Made by a program: the position numbers and the translations under genes. The notes below the pieces were generated by a model. That model was not told the DNA's origin, ran no database searches, and saw only the letters and a list, made by a program, of their open reading frames with translations. Shown here in pieces: positions 1,958 to 13,308 of a stretch of DNA of 18,888 nucleotides (position 1 is its first letter; every line of letters starts with the position of its first letter). Location of the stretch: positions 1 to 18,888 of IMG/VR virus record IMGVR_UViG_3300014970_000019, one strand, 5' to 3'. This DNA comes from a virus (lineage: Duplodnaviria; Heunggongvirae; Uroviricota; Caudoviricetes).

Positions 1958-2143
1958 AAAAAATGCCCTCCAATAGAGAGTATTTTTACTGTATGTATAA
2001 CCAGTGTCAATGTATGAAATCTTGCGACCATACATCTCACTGAAGCCATAATGAAGTTGGCTATTTTTTGCTATGTGAGTATGTAACTTTTGCGGTTAGC
2101 CTGCGGCTCATTGTTATATTAGGCGCAGATATAAAAGCAAAGT

Positions 2144-2335
2144 TTATCGTGAGTTTTTAGTACAGATTTTTTTGGATTTACTAATAGTTCCATCATTGCA
2201 AACAAATTTTCCATCGGAGGTACAGTGAGATACACCACCCTTTTTCCCAGAACAAGGATAATTTTTAGCATAGGTAGTTAGTGGGCTTAATAACAAAGAG
2301 CATGATAAAACCACAAAAAATACTTTACCAAGCAT
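2144..2335 (-). CDS. Small secreted Cys-containing protein (63 aa) with N-terminal signal peptide; prophage moron
   Basis: Strong RBS (gggagg 5 nt upstream of ATG). Hydrophobic N-terminus [23 protein letters not shown] followed by a mature region with 5 Cys. Local sequence is AT-rich relative to its neighbours. Confidence 0.55.
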
Positions 2336-2350: not shown

Positions 2351-2920
2351 TTATCTAACATATTTAACTGTTAAACTTATAATTTTTCCAATTATTTCAA
2401 CATCTTCTATCTTGCAGTCGAAGGCTCTGTTTCCACCTTCAACGAAGATTCTTCCACCGGGTAAACGAGTAATGTCGCGGATTGTTATCTCGCCATCAAT
2501 ACTTATTACCCATTTACCATCACGTATATCATCAAATTCTTTATCACAAATAAATTCAGAATTGTTATCTGTGATGACAAAAGGTTTTTTAAACGTAGAG
2601 GGTAGAAATCCCTTATCAAAAATATAAAAACCGTCTTCACGCAAGGCACCATCAGATAATACATATTTAGCAACTTCCATAGTATTTGTATTACCTGAAG
2701 TTTGCTTTGAACCATGTCCAGTTGTGAGCCAATTAAGCGAGGTGCCCGTTTCAAGGGCGCACTGGATTACCCATTCTGCTGGGAATGAGTCACGCATGTA
2801 GCGTGTGGCGAGTGTACTTTTAGAGATTCCTAAATGATCGCACAACGCCTGTCGAGTTTTGAATCCATAAGCTTCTACCATGCGCTCTATAGCGCCTCGT
2901 CCGCCTTTCTCCAAATTCAT
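2351..2920 (-). CDS. cI: CI-type immunity repressor (phage 186 CI-like)
   Basis: About 189 aa, with an N-terminal HTH region (ERMVEAYGFKTRQALCDHLGISKSTLATRYMRD) and a C-terminal oligomerisation-type domain. Divergent from the early operon and adjacent to int, as in 186. Start set at ATG 2920 (RBS ggag 5 nt upstream); the GTG at 2926 is the alternative. Confidence 0.8.
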   Translation of the reverse strand: MNLEKGGRGAIERMVEAYGFKTRQALCDHLGISKSTLATRYMRDSFPAEWVIQCALETGTSLNWLTTGHGSKQTSGNTNTMEVAKYVLSDGALREDGFYIFDKGFLPSTFKKPFVITDNNSEFICDKEFDDIRDGKWVISIDGEITIRDITRLPGGRIFVEGGNRAFDCKIEDVEIIGKIISLTVKYVR

Positions 2921-2944
2921 GGTCACTCCAAGTGAACTTTTATC

Positions 2945-3045: not shown

Positions 3046-3267
3046 ATGAGACCTAACATTTCAATCACTCTTACCACGCCTCATGTGACTATTGAACGCT
3101 ATAGCGAGCTGACAGGGCTGTCCATCGATACCATCAATGACATGTTGGCTGACGGACGCCTTATCCGTCACCGTCTGCGCAAAGATAAAAAACGCGAAAA
3201 AGTGATGATCAACATAGCAGCCATGACCGTTGATGCGCTTTCAGAATGCAATCTAAACCTTAATTAG
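3046..3267 (+). CDS. Apl/Cox-like small DNA-binding excisionase/regulator
   Basis: 73-aa first gene of the rightward operon, opposite cI, in the position of 186 apl / P2 cox. RBS gagga at 3031-3035. Assignment is by position and size rather than a recognised motif. Confidence 0.55.
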
Positions 3268-3299
3268 TTCGATTCTGAAATACATCAGAGGCATTGACC

Positions 3300-3809
3300 A
3301 TGTTTGATTACCAAGTTTCCAAACATCCACATTTTGATGAAGCCTGTCGTGCATTCGCACTGCGCCACAACCTGGTGCAACTGGCAGAACGTGCAGGCAT
3401 GAATGTGCAGATTCTGCGGAACAAGCTGAACCCAGCTCAACCTCATTTATTAACCGCACCAGACATCTGGCTGCTTACCGATCTGACTGAGGACTCAACA
3501 CTGGTAGATGGTTTTCTGGCACAGATTCATTGTCTGCCATGTGTTCCGATTAATGAGGTGGCAAAAGAGAAACTGCCGCATTACGTCATGAGTGCAACTG
3601 CAGAGATAGGACGTGTCGCGGCAGGTGCGGTTTCTGGCGATGTAAAAACCAGTGCAGGCCGTCGTGATGCGATCAGCAGCATTAACTCTGTAACACGACT
3701 GATGGCGCTGGCTGCTGTTTCATTGCAGGCCCGTTTACAGGCTAATCCTGCGATGGCGAGTGCAGTTGATACCGTGACTGGCCTCGGTGCTTCATTCGGT
3801 TTGCTGTGA
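3300..3809 (+). CDS. CII-like lysogeny establishment regulator (186 CII-like)
   Basis: 169 aa from ATG 3300, the same length as 186 CII as I recall it. It is the second gene of the early operon. RBS agagg at 3287-3291. Confidence 0.6.
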
Positions 3810-4850: not shown

Positions 4851-5704
4851 GCACCATCCTGAAATGGGCGGGAAATAAAACCGCCATTATGTCCGAACTG
4901 AAAAAATACCTTCCTGCTGGCCCGCGACTGGTTGAACCTTTCGCGGGTTCTTGTGCTGTGATGATGGCGACGGATTACCCCAGCTATCTGGTTGCGGATA
5001 TTAATCCTGATTTAATCAACCTCTATAAAAAGATTGCCGCTGATTGCGAAGCGTTTATATCTCGTGCCAGAGTTTTATTTGAGGAAGCAAACAGTGAGCT
5101 GGCTTATTACAACATAAGACAGGAGTTTAATTACTCAACTGAAATTACTGATTTCATGAAGGCGATATATTTCCTGTATCTCAATCGTCACGGTTACCGT
5201 GGTTTATGTCGCTATAACAAGAGCGGGCATTTCAACATTCCCTACGGTAATTATAAAAATCCGTATTTCCCTGAAAAAGAAATTCGCGCATTTGCAGAGA
5301 AAGCCCCGCGGGCAACGTTTATCTGCACGAGCTTTGATGAAACGCTGGCGATGTTGAAGGCGGGGGATGTGGTGTATTGCGATCCGCCTTATGACGGTAC
5401 GTTTTCCGGCTATCACACTGATGGTTTCACTGAAGATGACCAGTATCACCTGGCATCCGTTCTTGAACATCGAGCATCTGAAGGACATCCGGTCATTGTT
5501 TCTAACAGTGACACATCCCTGATCCGTTCGCTGTATCGCAATTTCACTCACTACTACATCAAGGCAAAACGCAGCATCGGCGTGTCGGCTGGCGAGAGTA
5601 AATCTGCAACAGAAATCATTGCTGTTTCCGGGGCGCGCTGCTGGGTGGGATTTGATCCTTCGCGTGGCGTGGATAGTTCTGCTGTGTACGAGGTGCGTGT
5701 ATGA
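4847..5704 (+). CDS. dam: DNA adenine methyltransferase (Dam-like N6-MTase)
   Basis: N-terminal SAM-binding motif ([11 protein letters not shown]) and catalytic DPPY motif (CDPPYDG). About 285 aa. Start overlaps the TraR stop (ATGA). Confidence 0.85.
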
Positions 5705-8115
5705 GTCATGCCGATATGAGCGACTCTAGCGGCTTTAACGAGGCCGCTGCAGCATTTTCATGGAACGGCCCGAAAAAGGCCATAAACCCTTATCTGGACC
5801 CGGCGGAAGTTGCGCCGGTTTCTGCGCTTTCAAACCTGATCACTCTGTATGCTGCCGATAACGAGCAGGAACAGCTGCGCCGCGAGGAATTGAGTGAACA
5901 GGTCTGGGAGCGTTATTTCTTTAATGAATCCCGTGATCCTGTCCAGCGCGAAATGGAGCAGGATAAGCTCATTAGTCGGGCAAAGCTGGCGCATGAGCAG
6001 CAGCGTTTTAACCCGGACATGGTCATTCTGGCGGACGTCAGCGCCCAGCCCACCCACATCAGCAAGCCGCTGATGCAAAGTATCGAATACTTCTGCAGCC
6101 TTGGCAGGCCAAAGGCTTATTCCCGCTATTTGCGTGAGACGATTAAGCCATGTCTGGAGCGACTGGATTGTGTACGCGACAGTCAGCTATCTACTTCTTT
6201 CCGTTTTATGGCAAGCCATCAAGGGCTGGAGGGCCTGCTGATCCTGCCTGAAATGAGTCAGGATCAGGTGAAACGCCTGTCCACCCTGGTAGCTGCGCAT
6301 ATGAGCATGTGTCTTGAGGCCGCTTGTGGTGATTTGTATACCAACGATGACGTAAAGCCAGAAGAAATCCGCAAGACATGGGAAAAGGTGGCAGCGGAAA
6401 CCCTGCGTCTGGATGTTATCCCGCCTGCGTTTGAGAAACTTCGTCGGAAAAGAAACCGCCGCAAACCTGTGCCCTATGAACTCATTCCGGGTTCGCTGGC
6501 ACGTATGCTTTGCGCCGACTGGTGGTATCGAAAATTGTGGAAGATGCGTTGCGAATGGCGGGAAGAGCAGTTGCGTGCTGTCTGTCTGGTCAGCAAAAAA
6601 GCATCTCCCTATGTCAGCTATGAAGCAGTGACGCATAAACGTGAGCAGCGCCGCAAGTCGCTGGAGTTTTTCCGTTCTCATGAACTGGTGAACGAAGACG
6701 GAGACACGCTGGATATGGAAGATGTGGTAAACGCCAGCAGCAGCAACCCGGCACATCGCCGCAATGAGATGATGGCCTGCGTTAAAGGTCTGGAGCTTAT
6801 CGCGGAAATGCGCGGTGACTGCGCCGTTTTCTACACCATCACATGTCCGTCACGTTTCCATTCCACGCTCAATAACGGCAGGCCCAACCCGACCTGGACA
6901 AATGCGACGGTAAGACAAAGCAGCGATTATCTGGTCGGCATGTTTGCTGCATTTCGTAAGGCGATGCACAAAACCGGGTTGCGCTGGTATGGCGTACGGG
7001 TGGCTGAGCCGCACCATGACGGTACTGTGCACTGGCATCTCATGTGTTTCATGCGCAAAAAAGACCGCCGCGCCATTACTGCATTGTTGCGTAAGTTTGC
7101 CATCCGTGAAGACCGCGAGGAGCTGGGCAATAACACGGGCCCACGCTTTAAGTCTGAGCTGATAAACCCACGCAAAGGAACGCCGACAAGCTACATCGCA
7201 AAATACATCAGTAAGAACATTGACGGGCGTGGTCTGGCTAACGAGATCAGCAAGGAAACGGGTAAATCCCTGCGTGATAACGCCGAATACGTTAATGCCT
7301 GGGCGTCTCTGCATCGTGTTCAGCAGTTCCGCTTCTTTGGTATTCCGGGGCGCCAGGCTTACCGTGAACTTCGCTTGCTGGCTGGTCAGGCGGCAAGGCA
7401 ACAGGGTGACAAAAAAGCAGGTGCGCCGGTACTGGATAACCCGCGCCTTGATGCCATCCTGGCTGCTGCTGATGCTGGTTGTTTTGCCACCTACATCATG
7501 AAGCAGGGCGGCGTACTGGTTCCCCGCAAATATCACCTCATCAGAACCGCTTATGAAATCAACGAAGAGCCAACCGCCTATGGCGATCACGGTATTCGTA
7601 TTTATGGCATCTGGTCACCCATTGCAGAGGGCAAGATCTGCACTCATGCAGTGAAGTGGAAAATGGTTCGTAAGGCCGTTGACGTTCAGGAGGCGGCAGC
7701 CGACCAGGGCGCTTGCGCCCCTTGGACTCGTGGCAATAACTGTCCCCTTGCTGAAAATTTGAACCAACAGGAGAAAGATAAATCAGCTGATGGGGACACC
7801 AGAACGGATATTACCCGCATGGATGACAAGGCGTTGCACGATTATCTGCACAGTATGAGCAAAAAAGAGCGCCGGGAACTGGCAGCAAGGTTACGCCTGG
7901 TTAAGCCGAAACGGCGTAAAGACTACAAACAGCGAATTACAGATCATCAGCGACAGCAGCTCGTCTATGAACTGAAGTCCAGAGGATTTGATGGCAGCGA
8001 GAAAGAGGTCGATTTACTCCTTCGCGGTGGCAGTATTCCGTCAGGAGCAGGCCTGCGTATCTTCTATCGGAACCAGCGTTTGCAGGAAGATGATAAGTGG
8101 CGAAACCTGTATTAA
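5701..8115 (+). CDS. A: Rolling-circle replication initiation endonuclease (P2 gpA-like)
   Basis: 804-aa protein with an HxH metal-binding motif ([10 protein letters not shown]) and downstream Tyr residues (YIAKYISK), typical of P2 A / HUH endonucleases. Start overlaps the dam stop (ATGA). Confidence 0.9.
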
Positions 8116-8207
8116 TTACGCGGGTTAACAATTCGTGCTCTTAATAATACCAGGCATATCAGGCTGATGAACGTAAAAAAACGTTTTACATCAGTAAGAT
8201 TATTATA

Positions 8208-8227
8208 TACTGTAAATATAAACAGTG
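8208..8227. promoter_or_regulatory. LexA (SOS) box TACTGTAAATATAAACAGTG
   Basis: CTGT-N8-ACAG palindrome with an AT-rich centre (CTGT at 8210-8213, ACAG at 8222-8225), about 40 bp upstream of the 8268 ORF and the DinI-like gene. It overlaps AT-rich -10-like sequence. Confidence 0.6.
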
Positions 8228-8267
8228 ATTATATATACAGTATTGCTTTGGTGTCATAGGAGGAAAG

Positions 8268-8456
8268 ATGCAGGACTATTTTTTGGAGTCTTTGAAGCTC
8301 CAGCGCATTGATTTTTTTCTTAAGCTTGTAGCGGCTAGTGAGTGTAGTGATGAAGAGAAGGGGCTGGCTCTGCAGTGGGTTTCTGAACTGACAGATGAAC
8401 TCATGGCAAAAATCAGAACCCACGAATACAACCGCTCAATGGATGTCATCAGCTGA
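8268..8456 (+). CDS. Small hypothetical protein (62 aa), first gene of the SOS-controlled module (possible Tum N-terminal-like antirepressor part)
   Basis: Strong RBS aggagg at 8258-8263 with ATG at 8268. Lies downstream of the LexA box, and its stop overlaps the RBS of the DinI-like gene. Confidence 0.5.
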   Translation: MQDYFLESLKLQRIDFFLKLVAASECSDEEKGLALQWVSELTDELMAKIRTHEYNRSMDVIS

Positions 8457-8466
8457 GGTGACTTTT

Positions 8467-8700
8467 ATGCGCATTGAAATAATGATCGATAAAGAGCAGA
8501 AGATTAGCCAGTCTACACTGGACGCCCTTGAATCCGAGCTTTACCGCAATCTGCGCCCCCTGTATCCCAAAACGGTAATTCGTATTCGCAAAGGTAGCTC
8601 TAACGGTGTGGAACTGACCGGACTGCAACTGGACGAAGAAAGAAAACAAGTGATGAAAATTATGCAGAAGGTGTGGGAAGACGACAGCTGGCTGCATTAA
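8467..8700 (+). CDS. DinI-family protein (phage Tum C-terminal/DinI-like)
   Basis: 77 aa starting MRIEIMIDKEQKIS and ending ...MQKVWEDDSWLH, which resembles the DinI pattern (MRIEV...; acidic C-terminus with W). RBS gaggtg upstream. Start trimmed from the track ORF 8395-8700. Confidence 0.8.
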   Translation: MRIEIMIDKEQKISQSTLDALESELYRNLRPLYPKTVIRIRKGSSNGVELTGLQLDEERKQVMKIMQKVWEDDSWLH

Positions 8701-8835
8701 GAAACGTTGCTGGCGTCTGAACTTGTTTCTGGCGTCAGCAAGGTTGAACAACGAGCCCTTGCGAGGCGTTAGCTCTGTAGTGCATGTCTATGCCGCATGA
8801 GATCGCATGATCGTTTGAGGATCGTTTTTGCTAAG

Positions 8836-8859
8836 GCCCGCCAGAACTGGCGGGCTTTT
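8836..8859 (+). terminator. Rho-independent terminator
   Basis: Perfect GC-rich stem gcccgccag / ctggcgggc (8836-8844 and 8847-8855) with a 2-nt loop, followed by TTTT (8856-8859). Confidence 0.7.
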
Positions 8860-8904
8860 GCGTAGATCATGCACCTGCATGAAAACCACTACATAAAGCG
8901 GGCA

Positions 8905-8923
8905 GGCGTGGCGGGGATACGAG
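8905..8923. other. cos-like sequence (candidate cohesive-end site or remnant)
   Basis: ggcgtggcggggatacgag. The first 13 nt match the 186/P2 cohesive-end 19-mer as I recall it (GGCG[T/A]GGCGGGGAAAGCA[T/C]). It sits between the tum-like module and the portal-proximal region, where cos is expected. Confidence 0.35.
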
Positions 8924-9003
8924 CGCGCGCTGACATCGTTAAGTATTGACATATCAGATGTTTAAATAGGAAAATTACCAAAATCCAGAAAAAAGAAAAG
9001 AAT

Positions 9004-10152
9004 ATGAAGAAGTTAACTGCGAGACAAAGAGAGATTGACGTAAAACGCTCGATAAAGTTACGACAAGGACGTGCTAAAGTTAGAAAAAAAGGTAAATCAT
9101 TTCACTATAATGTTGAATGGCGTAAGGCTAACTATTGGATTGAAGAACAATCAAAAAATGGATTAGATGTACAATTTGTAAGTAAAAAAAAGAAAGGGTT
9201 AATTCTAACTTTACCTTCTGAAATGAATTTTTCTACACACTACGATGTTACTGTTCAGCATATTAATGCGATTCGAATGTTATCAGAGAGAAAAGGATTG
9301 CCTAATGCAGGTTATCAATTAGCATCTGTTAATTTTTGTAATTTGAAGAAAACATCGACATCTGCAGCTCTTGTGTTAACTGCAGAGTTATCTAAATGGG
9401 ATGATGCGATTAGGCAGAGGTTGACTCCAAAAATAGACGGTTGGGATAAAAATGTTCTACGTAATTTCTATGAATTGGGGTTCTTTGATTTATTCAAAAA
9501 AAGCAGGGATATAAAATTAAATTTTAATGATGAGTATTCAAAAATAAAAGGTAAGCGATTTGTAAAATATCTTAAAGGAAAGTGTGGGGAAATTAAGAAA
9601 ACAAAAGTATTAAAAGAGGAGATTATTAAATTAGTTGGTGAGTCTATTGAAAAATGGACTTTCTTACATGGGGGCCTAAGTGAGGCTATTACCAATGTTT
9701 CTCATCATGCATATCCTTCTGATTGCGGATATAAAGAATATGATAAGAACTGGTATCTAACAGGATCTTATCATTTAGAAAGTAAGGAATTGAAGATAGT
9801 TTTTTATGATCAGGGTGTTGGTATCCCTAAAACTTTACCTGCATCAAAAGTTTGGGAAAAGGCATTAAATGTATTAGCATCAATTCCTGTATTGGAGCGA
9901 TATCGTGATGAAGCACTCTTGAAAGCTGCGGTAGAGTTGGATAGGACAAGTACAGAAGAGGGAGATCGTGGTAAAGGCCTACAGGATCTACTTGAGTTTA
10001 TTAAACAAAGAGAAAATGGTTATTTATCAATCATGAGCCTTAAGGGACTTTATAAACACTCAATGAATCAAGGTAATACAAAAATAAAAACTAAGAGTTT
10101 TGCATCCCCAATCTATGGTACACTAATAACTTGGAGTGTATCTCTTGATTGA
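9004..10152 (+). CDS. Cargo gene 1: protein with C-terminal GHKL (HATPase_c) RsbW/SpoIIAB-like kinase/ATPase domain and Lys-rich N-terminal domain of unknown function
   Basis: 382-aa ORF in a strongly AT-rich island. N-box-like LSEAITNVSHHAY (about aa 226-238), G1-box-like YDQGVGIP (about aa 268-275) and G2-box-like GDRGKGLQDL (about aa 320-329), in the order and spacing of GHKL ATPases. Family assignment is by motif, not by search. Confidence 0.65.
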   Translation: MKKLTARQREIDVKRSIKLRQGRAKVRKKGKSFHYNVEWRKANYWIEEQSKNGLDVQFVSKKKKGLILTLPSEMNFSTHYDVTVQHINAIRMLSERKGLPNAGYQLASVNFCNLKKTSTSAALVLTAELSKWDDAIRQRLTPKIDGWDKNVLRNFYELGFFDLFKKSRDIKLNFNDEYSKIKGKRFVKYLKGKCGEIKKTKVLKEEIIKLVGESIEKWTFLHGGLSEAITNVSHHAYPSDCGYKEYDKNWYLTGSYHLESKELKIVFYDQGVGIPKTLPASKVWEKALNVLASIPVLERYRDEALLKAAVELDRTSTEEGDRGKGLQDLLEFIKQRENGYLSIMSLKGLYKHSMNQGNTKIKTKSFASPIYGTLITWSVSLD

Positions 10153-10166
10153 GATGGAGGTTTAAT

Positions 10167-10580
10167 ATGAAAAATCTAGAAATTAATATAGGGAAAGAGT
10201 TTTCTTCTACTCCTTCAGGACGTTTCTATTCTGATATGACAGATAGCAGCGGCGAACAGTTTAGAGAGGAGCTTTTATGGCCTCGCTTACAGTTGCTTAA
10301 AGAAAAGCAAAAGATCGACATTATTTTGGATGATGACGTTGAAGGTTATGGTTCTTCTTTCCTCGTTGAAGGTTTTGCCGGTATAGTAAAATATGGATAT
10401 ATGGATAAACAACAACTATTAAGTAAACTTGAGTTAATTCAGAGAGATCCTGATTTTGCTTTGTTTAAGAGAAAAATAATACAATATATTAACGAGGCAG
10501 TGTTTGATTCAAAGGTTTATGAAAGTACCAAACCTATTTATTTGTCTAAGTTGTTGACGCAAAAAACACGTAAGGAGTAA
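10167..10580 (+). CDS. Cargo gene 2: small STAS-like / DUF4325-like protein (putative partner of gene 1)
   Basis: 137 aa from ATG 10167, with RBS ggagg at 10156-10160 lying inside the end of gene 1 (translational coupling). The motif IDIILDDDVEGYGSSFLVEGFAGIV resembles STAS/DUF4325 cores that pair with HATPase proteins. The track ORF starts at a TTG at 10149. Confidence 0.6.
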   Translation: MKNLEINIGKEFSSTPSGRFYSDMTDSSGEQFREELLWPRLQLLKEKQKIDIILDDDVEGYGSSFLVEGFAGIVKYGYMDKQQLLSKLELIQRDPDFALFKRKIIQYINEAVFDSKVYESTKPIYLSKLLTQKTRKE

Positions 10581-10585
10581 AGCAA

Positions 10586-11230
10586 ATGGAGCCCAATTAT
10601 AATTATCATTATATGATGAGTAATAATGAGCTTTATTTTAGGGCGGGTTATGATGCTCAGCAATATGGGGTTGTTTTTTCTCATTCGGCTGTTGATAATG
10701 TCGACTTGATACATATTATCAATGGTGGTTTTTCATCTGTTGCAGAAGCTATTAGTAACTCAGGAAACACCACACTTTCTGATGGGATTATACTTGCATT
10801 AGCAGGTGCGTTGAGTGCTTTTTTCTTTAATTTGATTCAAAAAGGAATTGACGCTAAGGCAAAACGTCTCACCAAATCTGGTGAAGCAATGTTATCCTTG
10901 ATAAATGAATTGGAGGATATTGCAGTACGTTATTGGGTCAGAGGGCACGATTCATCTTGTGCTGATAATGAAAGCAATATTTGTGATGAGATTAATATCA
11001 AAGCCATGTTAATGACCTTGGATAAAAATATTAGGTTTATGGTTGATAATTTACCGTTAAAAAACAAGTCTTTAAATAAAAATAAGCTGGAGAAATTTTC
11101 TTCTGATATTTATGATTTGGCATCTGGTGAAGATTTCGAAGCAGAGGTTAGGCCTCCCAATAAAACAAAGGCCTTTGCTATATCGAAAAAATGTAGTGAA
11201 GCAAAAGCCATCATTCTTGGTTTGATTTAA
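10586..11230 (+). CDS. Cargo gene 3: hypothetical protein (214 aa) with a hydrophobic putative transmembrane segment
   Basis: Strong RBS aaggag at 10572-10577 with ATG at 10586. Hydrophobic stretch GIILALAGALSAFFFNLI around aa 67-84. AT-rich codon usage like genes 1 and 2. No family recognised. Confidence 0.6.
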   Translation: MEPNYNYHYMMSNNELYFRAGYDAQQYGVVFSHSAVDNVDLIHIINGGFSSVAEAISNSGNTTLSDGIILALAGALSAFFFNLIQKGIDAKAKRLTKSGEAMLSLINELEDIAVRYWVRGHDSSCADNESNICDEINIKAMLMTLDKNIRFMVDNLPLKNKSLNKNKLEKFSSDIYDLASGEDFEAEVRPPNKTKAFAISKKCSEAKAIILGLI

Positions 11231-12255
11231 AAACGGTAATCCTCAAAGTTAATTACTGTTATGTTTAACCAAATATTTAGCTCTGTTATTCTTTTCTGAA
11301 GAATTTCTAATTCATTTTTTACGAATACTTTGGCAGCTTTCTCCACATCCCCAAACCCCCCAACATTATTAGGCATTATCCCCATCATTTGCGGCGGCAC
11401 TCGGTGTGCTGCCATCATGTCATCGCGGCTGACATTTTTGATATTCAGAAATTCATCCTTCGCCGCGACTTCTGACAGAGGAATGATCTGAAGCCCGTCC
11501 TTTTTGCCGTTAGGCGAGTACATAAACAGATTGCGGAAGTTGCCAGGGCCTTTGGCGCTTTTCATCGCATTGCGGAGGTTGTTCACATCCTCCTGGTTTT
11601 GCGCGGCATCGGTCATGTACATGATAAAGCCCGCATGACTGCCGTTAATGTAATACTTGCGACGGAACAGCGTGGCGGACTCGTTGAGCAGGGCAGACGG
11701 AATGGCAGAAAGATAACCGGGCAGGCCGTAGATCTCCTGATTAATATCCGGTTCCATTAGGTGAAAAATGCTGCCTTTCGTGAACTGATACGGTTGCGTG
11801 GTCATGCCGTATTGCACAAACCAGTAGGTATCCAGATCTAATCCGCGTCGGGTGTATTTTGCCAGGGCAGGTTCAAGGGCGATCACTTCACCGAAGCGGT
11901 TCGTGCGTTTCTCTAGGTAGGCGTTACCAAATACCAGATAGTCCTGCACAAAACGTGAAAACGCCTGCTGGCTGAGCAGCGGATGAGGGATGTAGGTGCT
12001 GGTCAGTATGTTGCACTTTACGGCAATCGGTGAGCTGTGGTGCACGGCGGCGCGAAAGGTTCGCGCCAGCCCGTCGAAACTCACTGGTGGCTCATACCAG
12101 CGGTCCATCTGTACGCATTCCACATAGTCCAGTAATTCGCGGCGGTCCAGAACAGGAACGGGATCACCGAAGCTGAATGCTTCGGCTGAAGTTTGGTTTT
12201 TATGCAGGATCTGATTCGTCGCCGCAGCGCGGTTTTTCTTACTCTTTCCCATCAA
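11227..12255 (-). CDS. Q: Portal protein (P2 gpQ-like)
   Basis: 342 aa, close to the size of P2 Q. It follows the terminase fragment in operon order P then Q on the minus strand. Its stop overlaps the convergent stop of cargo gene 3. Confidence 0.8.
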   Translation of the reverse strand: MMGKSKKNRAAATNQILHKNQTSAEAFSFGDPVPVLDRRELLDYVECVQMDRWYEPPVSFDGLARTFRAAVHHSSPIAVKCNILTSTYIPHPLLSQQAFSRFVQDYLVFGNAYLEKRTNRFGEVIALEPALAKYTRRGLDLDTYWFVQYGMTTQPYQFTKGSIFHLMEPDINQEIYGLPGYLSAIPSALLNESATLFRRKYYINGSHAGFIMYMTDAAQNQEDVNNLRNAMKSAKGPGNFRNLFMYSPNGKKDGLQIIPLSEVAAKDEFLNIKNVSRDDMMAAHRVPPQMMGIMPNNVGGFGDVEKAAKVFVKNELEILQKRITELNIWLNITVINFEDYRF

Positions 12256-12911
12256 AAAATCTCCACAATATTGCTGGTATTGGCGGATTCGCCCTGCAGC
12301 GGTTCGTTAAACAGTGCGTGCATTGTTGCCCAGGCCAGATCGGCATGGCTGGCTTCTTCGCTGCGGCTGGCTTCATAGGTTGGGCGGTTGCCGCTGGCGG
12401 TGGTGGCGCGACGGATTGCCATAAATGACTGCGCTATGTCGGTGTGTCCGGCGTCAAACTCCAGACGACGGTGACTGATAATGTCGTAGGCCTTGAGTAC
12501 CAGGGCGTTTTTAACGTTGGGGTTGTAGACAAACTCCCGGACGGCTGGAAAAAACGCTTTCACGTTCTCGTAAACCCCGTGGCCGACACCTGTCGAGTCG
12601 ATGCCGATGTAGGTCACGTTGTACTGCTCGGTCAGTTTTTTGATGGCGTCAGCCTGGGCGCGGAAGTCCATCCCGCGCCACTGGTGACGCTCAAGAATGC
12701 GGAACTTACCACCCGGCACGGCTGGCGGTGCCACCACCACGCATCCGGCACTGTCGCCGTTCTGCGTACCTTTTGCCGGGTCATAACCGATCCACACTTC
12801 GCGCCAGCCAAACGGGCGCAGGGCCAGAGCATGAAAGTCGGTCCAGACTTCCCAACTGTCCACCATGCACGCCTGCAGCTCGCTGAGCGGAAACCAGAAC
12901 GACGTCACCAC
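12252..12911 (-). pseudogene. P: Terminase large subunit (gpP-like), C-terminal fragment only; 5'-truncated
   Basis: Immediately upstream of Q with an overlapping stop/start (ATGA), but only about 219-245 codons are open, against roughly 590 aa for P2 P. Identity as the terminase nuclease domain rests on operon position and the IGIDSTGVGHG motif. There is no credible start, and the frame runs into FI coding sequence on the opposite strand. Confidence 0.7.
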
Positions 12912-13308
12912 GCTTGTGCGTAAAGACGGTTTCCGCTTCTGGGGTTCCCGCTGCCTGAGTGATGACCCGCTCTTTGCCTTCGAAAACTACACCCGCACGG
13001 CGCAGGTGCTGATGGACACGATGGCAGAAGCACACATGTGGGCGGTGGATAAACCGCTTAACCCGTCGCTGGCCCGCGACATTATCGAAGGTATCCGCGC
13101 CAAAATGCGCAGCCTGGTCAGTCAGGGCTATCTCATTGGTGGTGATTGCTGGCTGGATGAGTCGGTGAACGACAAAGACACGCTGAAAGCCGGAAAACTC
13201 ACCATCGACTACGACTACACGCCAGTGCCGCCACTTGAAAACCTGATGCTGCGTCAGCGCATCACCGATCAGTACTTGGTGAATTTCGCCAGCCAGGTCA
13301 GCGCGTAA
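12835..13308 (+). pseudogene. FI: Tail sheath protein (gpFI-like), C-terminal fragment only; 5'-truncated
   Basis: Open frame from an in-frame stop at 12832-12834 to TAA at 13306-13308, at most about 157 codons, against about 396 aa for P2 FI. It sits immediately upstream of FII. The C-terminus ...[27 protein letters not shown] is sheath-like. Confidence 0.7.

What the first reader, a model, noticed from the sequence alone, without database searches (positions are those of the whole stretch)
8208..8700. SOS-controlled Tum/DinI-like antirepressor module downstream of gene A
A well-formed LexA box (TACTGTAAATATAAACAGTG) precedes a two-gene unit whose second product is clearly DinI-like. In phage 186 the LexA-repressed tum gene, with a DinI-like C-terminal part, occupies the same position and inactivates CI on DNA damage. 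Here the module is split into two ORFs (62 aa and 77 aa), so the antirepressor and DinI-like functions may be separate polypeptides.
Basis: partly seen in the sequence, partly recalled or inferred. Interest (0 to 1): 0.5.

Follow-up and report, generated by a model that had tools for sequence, protein, structure and literature searches.

The report
SOS-controlled split tum (tumA/tumB) prophage-induction operon
This is the known DNA-damage switch of a Fels-2/186-type prophage: a LexA-repressed promoter drives a small antirepressor gene (tumA) and a separate DinI-like gene (tumB), an arrangement already described for phages PSP3 and Fels-2, so the finding is correct but ordinary.

Summary
A strong LexA box (8208-8227) precedes two genes, a 62-aa ORF (8268-8456) and a 77-aa DinI-family ORF (8467-8700). 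They lie just downstream of replication gene A in a Fels-2-like (P2/186 family) prophage that carries a 186-type CI repressor.

The interpretation also holds, but it is not new. The DNA is about 97% identical to Fels-2. The PSP3 record annotates the same pair as tumA ("UV induction of prophage") and tumB. Lemire et al. 2011 state that Fels-2 and PSP3 have tum split in two, with the upstream gene encoding the antirepressor. Published array data show the Fels-2 copy induced up to about 15-fold by a mutagen.

I add five points:
- The 62-aa protein is homologous to the N-terminal 44 residues of 186 Tum (hhalign 97%) and is under strong purifying selection.
- The operator is really two overlapping LexA boxes with the same layout as the colicin E1 operator, and this is conserved across the Fels-2 clade.
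- A near-identical TumA is paired with CI repressors only 36-59% identical to each other, whose N-terminal DNA-binding domains are conserved.
- A second LexA box lies in the int promoter.
- The prophage has lost its head, lysis and most tail genes.

The parts
8163..8195 (+). Hairpin after gene A. Its 3' arm overlaps the -35 hexamer. It probably acts as a terminator or insulator that keeps early-operon read-through out of tumA.
   Evidence: RNA fold gives -12.3 kcal/mol, z -4.0. Lemire 2011 describes analogous terminator-like palindromes ahead of the Gifsy LexA boxes. The function is inferred.
8185..8190 (+). -35 hexamer TTTACA of the tumA promoter (equivalent to 186 p95).
   Evidence: It is invariant in 7 relatives while the flanking DNA diverges. 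The geometry matches the annotated 186 p95 promoter (-35 TTCACA, -10 TACTGT; sequence). The generic promoter scan did not call it, because the -10 is weak.
8208..8213 (+). -10 hexamer TACTGT, 17 nt after the -35. It is the first 6 nt of LexA box 1.
   Evidence: By analogy with the annotated 186 p95 -10 (TACTGT, the first 6 nt of its LexA site). Inferred.
8208..8227 (.). LexA box 1, TACTGTAAATATAAACAGTG.
   Evidence: Conserved in all Fels-2-clade relatives.
8223..8242 (.). LexA box 2, CAGTGATTATATATACAGTA. It overlaps box 1 by 5 nt, a 15-nt offset.
   Evidence: PWM score 15.7; only 3 positions in the window score at least 10. A box at the same offset is present in all 7 relatives, scoring 11.6-19.3. 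The ColE1 cea operator has the same layout, and part of its sequence is identical (CAGTGGTTATATGTACAGTA in both ColE1 and Fels-2).
8258..8263 (+). Shine-Dalgarno AGGAGG of tumA.
   Evidence: Read from the sequence. Invariant in the alignment of relatives.
8268..8456 (+). tumA, 62 aa, the TumA-type antirepressor homologue (phrog_698). Databases label it 'hypothetical protein'.
   Evidence: PHROG 698 at E 3.6e-38. hhalign to the 186 Tum N-terminal family gives 97%. dN/dS is 0.08-0.09. AlphaFold2 predicts a helical hairpin with pLDDT 86.8.
8455..8460 (+). Shine-Dalgarno GAGGTG of tumB, overlapping the tumA stop codon.
   Evidence: Read from the sequence.
8467..8700 (+). tumB, 77 aa, DinI-family protein.
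   Evidence: PF06183 at E 6.6e-23. 78% identical to PSP3 TumB. 41% identical to the 186 Tum C-terminal half. Matches the E. coli DinI structure 1GHH at E 2.7e-6.
8703..8745 (+). Strong hairpin just after tumB with no T-run. It may be a partial terminator or an RNA stabiliser, comparable to 186 t95a.
   Evidence: -23.5 kcal/mol, z -3.3. 186 has a partial terminator, t95a, at the equivalent place. Inferred.
8833..8860 (+). Intrinsic terminator (GGCCCGCCAG-AACT-GGCGGGC followed by TTTT) that ends the SOS operon.
   Evidence: -23.7 kcal/mol, z -4.9.
2351..2926 (-). 186-type CI repressor, the presumed target of TumA.
   Evidence: PF07022 plus PF16452. 31% identical to 186 CI. Matches the 186 CI structure 2FJR at E 8e-31. 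The Peptidase_S24 match falls below the Pfam cut-off.

Best explanation
This is the SOS induction operon of a Fels-2-like prophage, the split form (tumA-tumB) of the phage 186 tum gene. In an undamaged cell, LexA occupies two overlapping boxes that cover the -10 region and the predicted transcription start, and the operon is silent. DNA damage activates RecA, LexA cleaves itself, and the promoter fires.

TumA is a 62-aa helical hairpin homologous to the first 44 residues of 186 Tum. It then binds the non-cleavable 186-type CI repressor and stops it binding its operators. This is reversible, stoichiometric sequestration, as in 186. The early lytic promoter is thereby released. TumB is a stand-alone DinI homologue that most likely modulates RecA filaments and so tunes the strength or duration of the SOS signal.

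What is shown here: the sequence features, the homologies, the conservation and the selection on the genes. What is shown in the literature for near-identical or related copies: DNA-damage induction of the Fels-2 operon, lethality of lexA null mutations caused by Fels-2, and antirepressor activity of 186 Tum and (as a cited personal communication) PSP3 TumA. What is inferred: that TumA binds this CI, that it does so through the CI N-terminal domain, that two LexA dimers bind cooperatively, and what TumB does.
For: - Operator. The phylogenetic footprint shows the -35 hexamer, both boxes and the Shine-Dalgarno site conserved while the flanking DNA diverges.
- Every relative examined has a LexA box 30-45 nt upstream of its tumA-like gene. 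This includes phages with a stand-alone tumA and no DinI gene (ENT90, YenM_324, YenM_201.16, ESSI-2, ev129).
- TumA homology to the 186 Tum N-terminus: hhalign probability 97%, E 9.6e-11. Intermediates link the two families (tblastn).
- Purifying selection: dN/dS 0.08-0.09 at dS of about 0.9-1.0.
- TumB is a DinI-family protein.
- CI is of the 186 type.
- Literature and record annotation: the PSP3 record labels tumA 'UV induction of prophage' and tumB 'similar to dinI and 3' end of 186 tum'. PMC3121763 states that Fels-2 and PSP3 have tum split, with the upstream gene encoding the antirepressor. PMC2225428 lists the STM2726-2727-2728 operon as induced by the mutagen MX, with STM2727 up 5.5- to 14.8-fold. 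[quoted passage not shown] PMC7708051 describes 186 Tum sequestering CI under the LexA-regulated p95 promoter.
- The window DNA is 97% identical to Fels-2 across this unit.
Against: - Nothing was measured for this particular copy.
- BLASTP sees no similarity between the 62-aa protein and either 186 Tum or PSP3 TumA. Homology rests on profiles and intermediates.
- The evidence that PSP3 TumA is the antirepressor is a personal communication cited second-hand. I could not read Bunny et al. 2002.
- TumA does not co-vary with CI. TumA proteins 98-100% identical to this one sit next to CI proteins only 36-59% identical to each other. That is unexpected for a specific repressor-antirepressor pair, unless the contact is with the conserved CI N-terminal domain.
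- The prophage is defective, so the switch here cannot lead to virions.
Confidence: 0.85

Rival explanations
1. TumA is SOS-induced but its target is not CI, or not CI alone. It might act on a host or otherwise invariant component, with CI inactivated by another route.
For: A TumA that is 98-100% identical is paired with at least six CI types that are 36-59% identical to each other. No direct binding data exist for this clade.
Against: TumA is homologous to the part of 186 Tum that is absent from the truncated, non-antirepressor forms annotated in the 186 record. The PSP3 tumA annotation reads 'UV induction of prophage'. The CI N-terminal domains of those six types are 60-83% identical, whereas the rest of the protein is 21-51% identical, which gives a conserved surface for TumA to bind. 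No other SOS-linked candidate inducer was seen in the window, and CI lacks a credible S24 autocleavage domain.
Confidence: 0.1
2. The two ORFs are a decaying tum gene broken by a mutation, and the upstream piece no longer functions.
For: 186 has a single fused gene. RefSeq labels the 62-aa ORF 'hypothetical protein'.
Against: Both ORFs have dN/dS of about 0.08 across relatives with dS of about 1. Each has its own Shine-Dalgarno site. The split form is found in Salmonella, Escherichia, Klebsiella and Yersinia phages. Among 1.84 billion representative proteins the family consists almost entirely of stand-alone proteins under about 135 aa; the two longer entries (217 and 1218 aa) were not examined. 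Stand-alone tumA genes without any DinI gene also exist.
Confidence: 0.03
3. A full-length fused Tum is still made, by programmed frameshifting or stop-codon read-through across the tumA-tumB junction.
For: The DinI reading frame is open from 8395 and overlaps the end of tumA. In PSP3 and YpMLG42 the two genes are in the same frame.
Against: The frame relation differs among relatives: +1 in the window and Fels-2, +2 in SopEPhi and Kp ST437phi4.1, 0 in YpMLG42 and PSP3. The gap between the genes ranges from 3 to 12 nt. I did not notice a slippery motif when reading the junction by eye, but I ran no dedicated search for one. The junction hairpin is no better than shuffled sequence (z -0.9).
Confidence: 0.02

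Closest known systems
Fels-2 STM2728 / STM2726.1 (STM2727) and PSP3 tumA / tumB
   Same: Same position after gene A, and the same two-gene split with a LexA-controlled promoter. The DNA is about 97% identical to Fels-2. TumA is 98.4% identical to Fels-2 STM2728. TumB is 78% identical to PSP3 TumB. Fels-2 has the same tandem operator.
   Different: Fels-2 has a 732-bp orf97-like gene (STM2726) after the DinI gene, and the window lacks it. PSP3 TumA is too diverged for BLASTP to detect, and PSP3 has a single LexA box. The window's CI is only 38% identical to Fels-2 CI.
Phage 186 p95-tum-orf97 SOS operon
   Same: A LexA box that coincides with the -10 hexamer TACTGT. An antirepressor domain followed by a DinI-like domain. 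A 186-type non-cleavable CI as target. Located after gene A.
   Different: 186 Tum is a single 146-aa polypeptide, with DinI-only forms made from internal starts. It has a single LexA box. orf97 is present. The TumA region is only about 20% identical.
Colicin operators (ColE1 cea) with two overlapping SOS boxes
   Same: Two 20-nt boxes offset by 15 nt that share CAGTG. Box 2 in Fels-2 is identical to ColE1 box 2. The literature attributes very tight repression to this layout, for genes whose expression kills the cell (PMC2994835).
   Different: The downstream genes are unrelated. Cooperative binding of LexA has not been tested here.
Gifsy dinI-gfoA/gftA-irsA SOS operons
   Same: A LexA-repressed prophage operon that pairs a DinI homologue with a small antirepressor, with terminator-like palindromes upstream.
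   Different: The gene order is reversed (dinI first). The antirepressors and repressors belong to unrelated families, and the host phages are lambdoid.

Membership tests
Tum/TumA antirepressor of 186-like phages | Sequence homology to the N-terminal (non-DinI) part of 186 Tum | tested here: met
   hhalign of A1 against A2 gives probability 97%, E 9.6e-11, over residues 1-44. A chain of intermediates links the families. Pairwise BLASTP is negative.
Tum/TumA antirepressor of 186-like phages | Located directly downstream of replication gene A in a P2/186-type genome | tested here: met
Tum/TumA antirepressor of 186-like phages | Promoter overlapped by a LexA operator | tested here: met
   Conserved in all 13 relatives inspected.
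Tum/TumA antirepressor of 186-like phages | Co-resident 186-type CI repressor (Phage_CI_repr plus Phage_CI_C, no autocleavage domain) | tested here: met
Tum/TumA antirepressor of 186-like phages | Transcription induced by DNA damage | not testable with these tools
   Published for the 97%-identical Fels-2 copy: STM2727 rises up to 14.8-fold with MX (PMC2225428).
Tum/TumA antirepressor of 186-like phages | Binds CI and prevents operator binding | not testable with these tools
   Shown for 186 Tum (Shearwin 1998, as cited). For PSP3 TumA only a cited personal communication exists.
DinI family (PF06183) | Match above the Pfam gathering threshold across the whole domain | tested here: met
   81.3 bits against a cut-off of 24.2, covering profile positions 1-63 of 63. 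Matches 1GHH at E 2.7e-6. Falls below the NCBIfam equivalog cut-off for chromosomal DinI (42.7 against 111), so it is a paralogue and not DinI itself.
DinI family (PF06183) | Binding to RecA filaments | not testable with these tools
   No assay was possible.
Colicin-type tandem SOS operator | Two LexA boxes overlapping, with a 15-nt offset | tested here: met
Colicin-type tandem SOS operator | Two LexA dimers bound, giving tighter or delayed derepression | not testable with these tools
   Literature evidence exists only for colicins.

The most novel reading that the evidence does not exclude
TumA of the Fels-2 clade may be a broad-specificity antirepressor that recognises the conserved N-terminal DNA-binding domain of many heteroimmune 186-type CI repressors. 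If so, one LexA-controlled tumA could induce other co-resident Fels-2-like prophages in trans, even when it sits in a defective remnant such as this one. In this clade the SOS input would also be wired in a distinctive way: a colicin-type double operator on tumA and, in some members, a separate LexA-controlled int promoter.
Probability: 0.3. Interest if true: 0.5.

Novelty: already known. Interest (0 to 1): 0.25.

Why it matters
The module decides when a widespread family of enterobacterial prophages (in Escherichia, Salmonella, Klebsiella and Yersinia) leaves lysogeny. These prophages often carry virulence or defence cargo. Recognising the 62-aa 'hypothetical protein' as TumA would correct the annotation of a widely distributed gene (484 database relatives). 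The possible breadth of TumA across immunity types bears on cross-induction between prophages. As a discovery, however, it repeats what is already published for 186, PSP3 and Fels-2.

Tried and rejected
- BLASTP of the 62-aa protein against 186 Tum and PSP3 TumA found nothing. Homology needed profiles.
- Pfam, NCBIfam and PADLOC have no model for TumA. There is no solved structure by sequence.
- Foldseek of the AlphaFold2 helical hairpin against BFVD and PDB gave only generic two-helix matches, none at E of 0.001 or better.
- The generic sigma-70 scan did not call the tumA promoter. It did call a minus-strand ATGACA-18-TATAAT at 8257-8228. The -35-like part of that match is not conserved in relatives, so I treat it as chance.
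- An Rfam scan of 7900-9200 found nothing credible.
- The longer 101-aa reading of tumB from ATG 8395 was rejected. Relatives conserve the ATGCGCATTGAA start and its Shine-Dalgarno site, while the upstream frame differs between them.
- Bunny et al. 2002 could not be retrieved.
- A literature search for TumA/TumB as whole words returned only noise.

Full report
**Context.** The window is a Fels-2-like (Peduoviridae, P2/186 family) prophage. On the minus strand it has int (926-2035) and a 186-type CI repressor (2351-2926; PF07022 plus PF16452). On the plus strand it has apl/cox (3046-3267), cII (3294-3809) and replication gene A (5701-8115; PF05840, E 3e-128). In E. coli genomes the same element lies between rcdA and ybjL. 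No complete E. coli genome carries an identical copy; the best match is about 95% identical over 86% of the window.

**Observation.** TACTGTAAATATAAACAGTG is at 8208-8227. It is the only CTGT-N8-ACAG in the window, with 0.19 expected by chance. It is also the only site within three mismatches of the 20-nt LexA consensus, with none in 200 shuffles. The training sites score 13.5-26.4 and the best of 100 shuffled windows scores 18.6. The 62-aa ORF is 8268-8456. The DinI-like ORF is 8467-8700 and has 77 aa. Its Pfam DinI match is E 6.6e-23.

A second box, CAGTGATTATATATACAGTA (8223-8242), overlaps the first by 5 nt and scores 15.7 bits. Only three positions in the whole window score 10 or more. 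I aligned seven relatives whose intergenic DNA has otherwise diverged. In all of them the -35 hexamer TTTACA, both boxes and the Shine-Dalgarno site are conserved. All seven have a second box at the same 15-nt offset, scoring 11.6-19.3 bits.

This is the layout of the colicin E1 operator, which I read from the ColE1 record: TGCTGTATATAAAACCAGTGGTTATATGTACAGTA. Box 2 of Fels-2 is identical to ColE1 box 2. The literature says overlapping SOS boxes in colicin genes bind two LexA dimers and prevent untimely expression of a lethal product (PMC2994835). Phage 186, PSP3, ENT90, two Yersinia phages, ESSI-2 and ev129 each have a single, stronger box of 23-28.5 bits.

The promoter geometry copies the annotated 186 p95 promoter: -35 TTTACA, a 17-nt spacer, and -10 TACTGT, which is the first 6 nt of box 1.

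**The 62-aa protein.** Pfam, NCBIfam and PADLOC have no model for it. It belongs to PHROG 698, which has no assigned function, and RefSeq calls it a hypothetical protein. BLASTP against 186 Tum finds nothing.

Small proteins encoded at the same position in other P2-like phages bridge the two families. A profile of the ORF62 family aligns with a profile of the 186 Tum N-terminal family over residues 1-44, with 97% probability and E 9.6e-11. The shared core motif is roughly L-[QE]-R-[IV]-x-[LFM]-x3-[LM]-x5-C-x3-[DE]-[KR]-x-[LI]-A-[LI]-x-W/L-[VIL]-[SA]-E-[LIM].

The gene is under strong purifying selection, with dN/dS of 0.08-0.09 against relatives at dS of about 0.9-1.0. The word-indexed protein search finds 484 relatives. 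An exhaustive search of 1.84 billion cluster representatives finds 66 hits, almost all stand-alone proteins under about 135 aa; the two longer entries (217 and 1218 aa) were not examined. AlphaFold2 predicts a two-helix hairpin (H2-23 and H28-61, pLDDT 86.8). Fold searches were uninformative.

**The 77-aa protein.** It is a DinI-family protein. It is 41% identical to 186 Tum residues 71-145 and 78% identical to PSP3 TumB. It matches the E. coli DinI structure 1GHH. It falls below the NCBIfam equivalog cut-off for chromosomal DinI.

**Already known.** The PSP3 record annotates tumA as 'similar to 5' end 186 tum; UV induction of prophage' and tumB as 'similar to dinI and 3' end of 186 tum'. Lemire et al. 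[quoted passage not shown] They cite Bunny et al. 2002 for this.

The window is about 97% identical to Fels-2 across this unit. In Salmonella TA100, which carries Fels-2, the operon STM2726-2727-2728 is listed as induced by the mutagen MX. [quoted passage not shown] In 186, Tum expressed from the LexA-regulated p95 promoter sequesters CI (PMC7708051).

**Split versus fused.** The frame relation between tumA and tumB differs among relatives (+1, +2 or 0) and the gap ranges from 3 to 12 nt. Conserved recoding into a fused protein is therefore unlikely. ENT90, YenM_324, YenM_201.16, ESSI-2 and ev129 have only the small gene behind a LexA box and no DinI gene. The 186 record annotates DinI-only products made from internal starts. 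The antirepressor and DinI parts therefore behave as independent modules.

**An unexplained point.** TumA does not co-vary with CI. Phages whose TumA is 98-100% identical to the window's carry CI proteins only 38-54% identical to the window's CI. These include Fels-2, Kp4860-7, Kp4846-2, Cartapus and RE2010; 813R9 matches at about 98% DNA identity across this unit, and its TumA protein was not compared separately. Those CI proteins are 36-59% identical to each other.

Within six such CI proteins the N-terminal DNA-binding domain (window residues 8-72) is 60-83% identical, whereas the linker and C-terminal domain are 21-51% identical. Against 186 CI the N-terminal domain is only 38-45% identical. 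The simplest reading is that TumA contacts the conserved N-terminal domain, which would fit the 186 annotation 'inhibits CI DNA binding'. This is inference only.

**Operon ends.** A hairpin at 8163-8195 follows gene A. A strong hairpin without a T-run (8703-8745) follows tumB. A clear intrinsic terminator lies at 8833-8860. The orf97-like gene that follows tumB in Fels-2 and 186 is absent from the window.

**Verdict.** The finding is correct in both observation and interpretation, but it re-describes a published arrangement. The tandem operator, the pairing of one TumA with many CI types, and the second LexA box at int are modest additions that would need experiments.

Noticed in passing
window 1987-2006 (box); promoter 2012-1975 on the minus strand; int start near 1957: There is a second strong LexA box, TACTGTATGTATAACCAGTG, scoring 23.3 bits. 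On the minus strand it sits in the spacer of a near-consensus promoter (TTGACA, 16 nt, TAAAAT). That promoter lies about 25 nt upstream of a GGAGGG site and the ATG that RefSeq uses as the int start in a related E. coli prophage (343 aa). The box and promoter are conserved in Klebsiella phages 4LV2017 and KP12 and in E. coli phage 813R9, with changes only inside the box spacer. This suggests that int transcription is under SOS control.
   Followed up: partly
window about 12252-13308, junction near 12894: The prophage is defective. The terminase gene P is cut down to its C-terminal RNaseH-like domain (219 aa). It abuts the C-terminal domain of the tail sheath, so the capsid, lysis, baseplate and fibre genes are missing. 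The tube, E, tape-measure and U genes follow. Related E. coli genomes hold remnants of similar size (about 19 kb) but with a different internal structure: F829 retains a capsid-gene fragment, the terminase endonuclease subunit, head-completion, tail protein X and holin genes, with its sheath gene cut at the other end.
   Followed up: partly
window 9004-11230: Three plus-strand cargo ORFs of 382, 143 and 214 aa have their own promoter-like site at 8946-8975. They occupy the variable spot between tumB and the portal gene, where relatives carry orf97, a Hypoth_Ymh protein or a TIR protein; SEFIR- and PIN-domain genes also appear among the genes under the E. coli prophage matches, position not checked. 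They have no PADLOC or NCBIfam hit, and only a sub-threshold DUF4325 match for the 143-aa ORF. This could be an undescribed defence cassette.
   Followed up: partly
window 2144-2335 (minus strand): A 63-aa Cys-rich ORF with a signal-peptide-like N-terminus lies between cI and int. It matches NCBIfam NF007463 (PRK10040, 'hypothetical protein') at E 7.7e-34. It separates int from the cI transcript, which may be why int has its own promoter.
   Followed up: no
alignment A5; L004, L007: Many distant TumA-family members end in a Gly-rich tail that finishes with ...GG-x-SGGG-x-(L/F)Q. Examples are ev129, YenM_324 and several metagenomic representatives. The window's protein lacks this tail. Its function is unknown.
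   Followed up: no
window 8257-8228 (minus strand): The promoter scan finds an 11-of-12 match, ATGACA-18-TATAAT, pointing leftwards and overlapping LexA box 2. The -35-like part is not conserved in SopEPhi, Klebsiella or Yersinia relatives, so it is probably chance.
   Followed up: partly
L003-L007 (ENT90, YenM_324, YenM_201.16, ESSI-2, ev129): Several P2-like phages carry only a LexA-controlled stand-alone tumA-like gene after gene A, with no DinI-like gene. In two of the records this gene is not annotated at all.
   Followed up: partly
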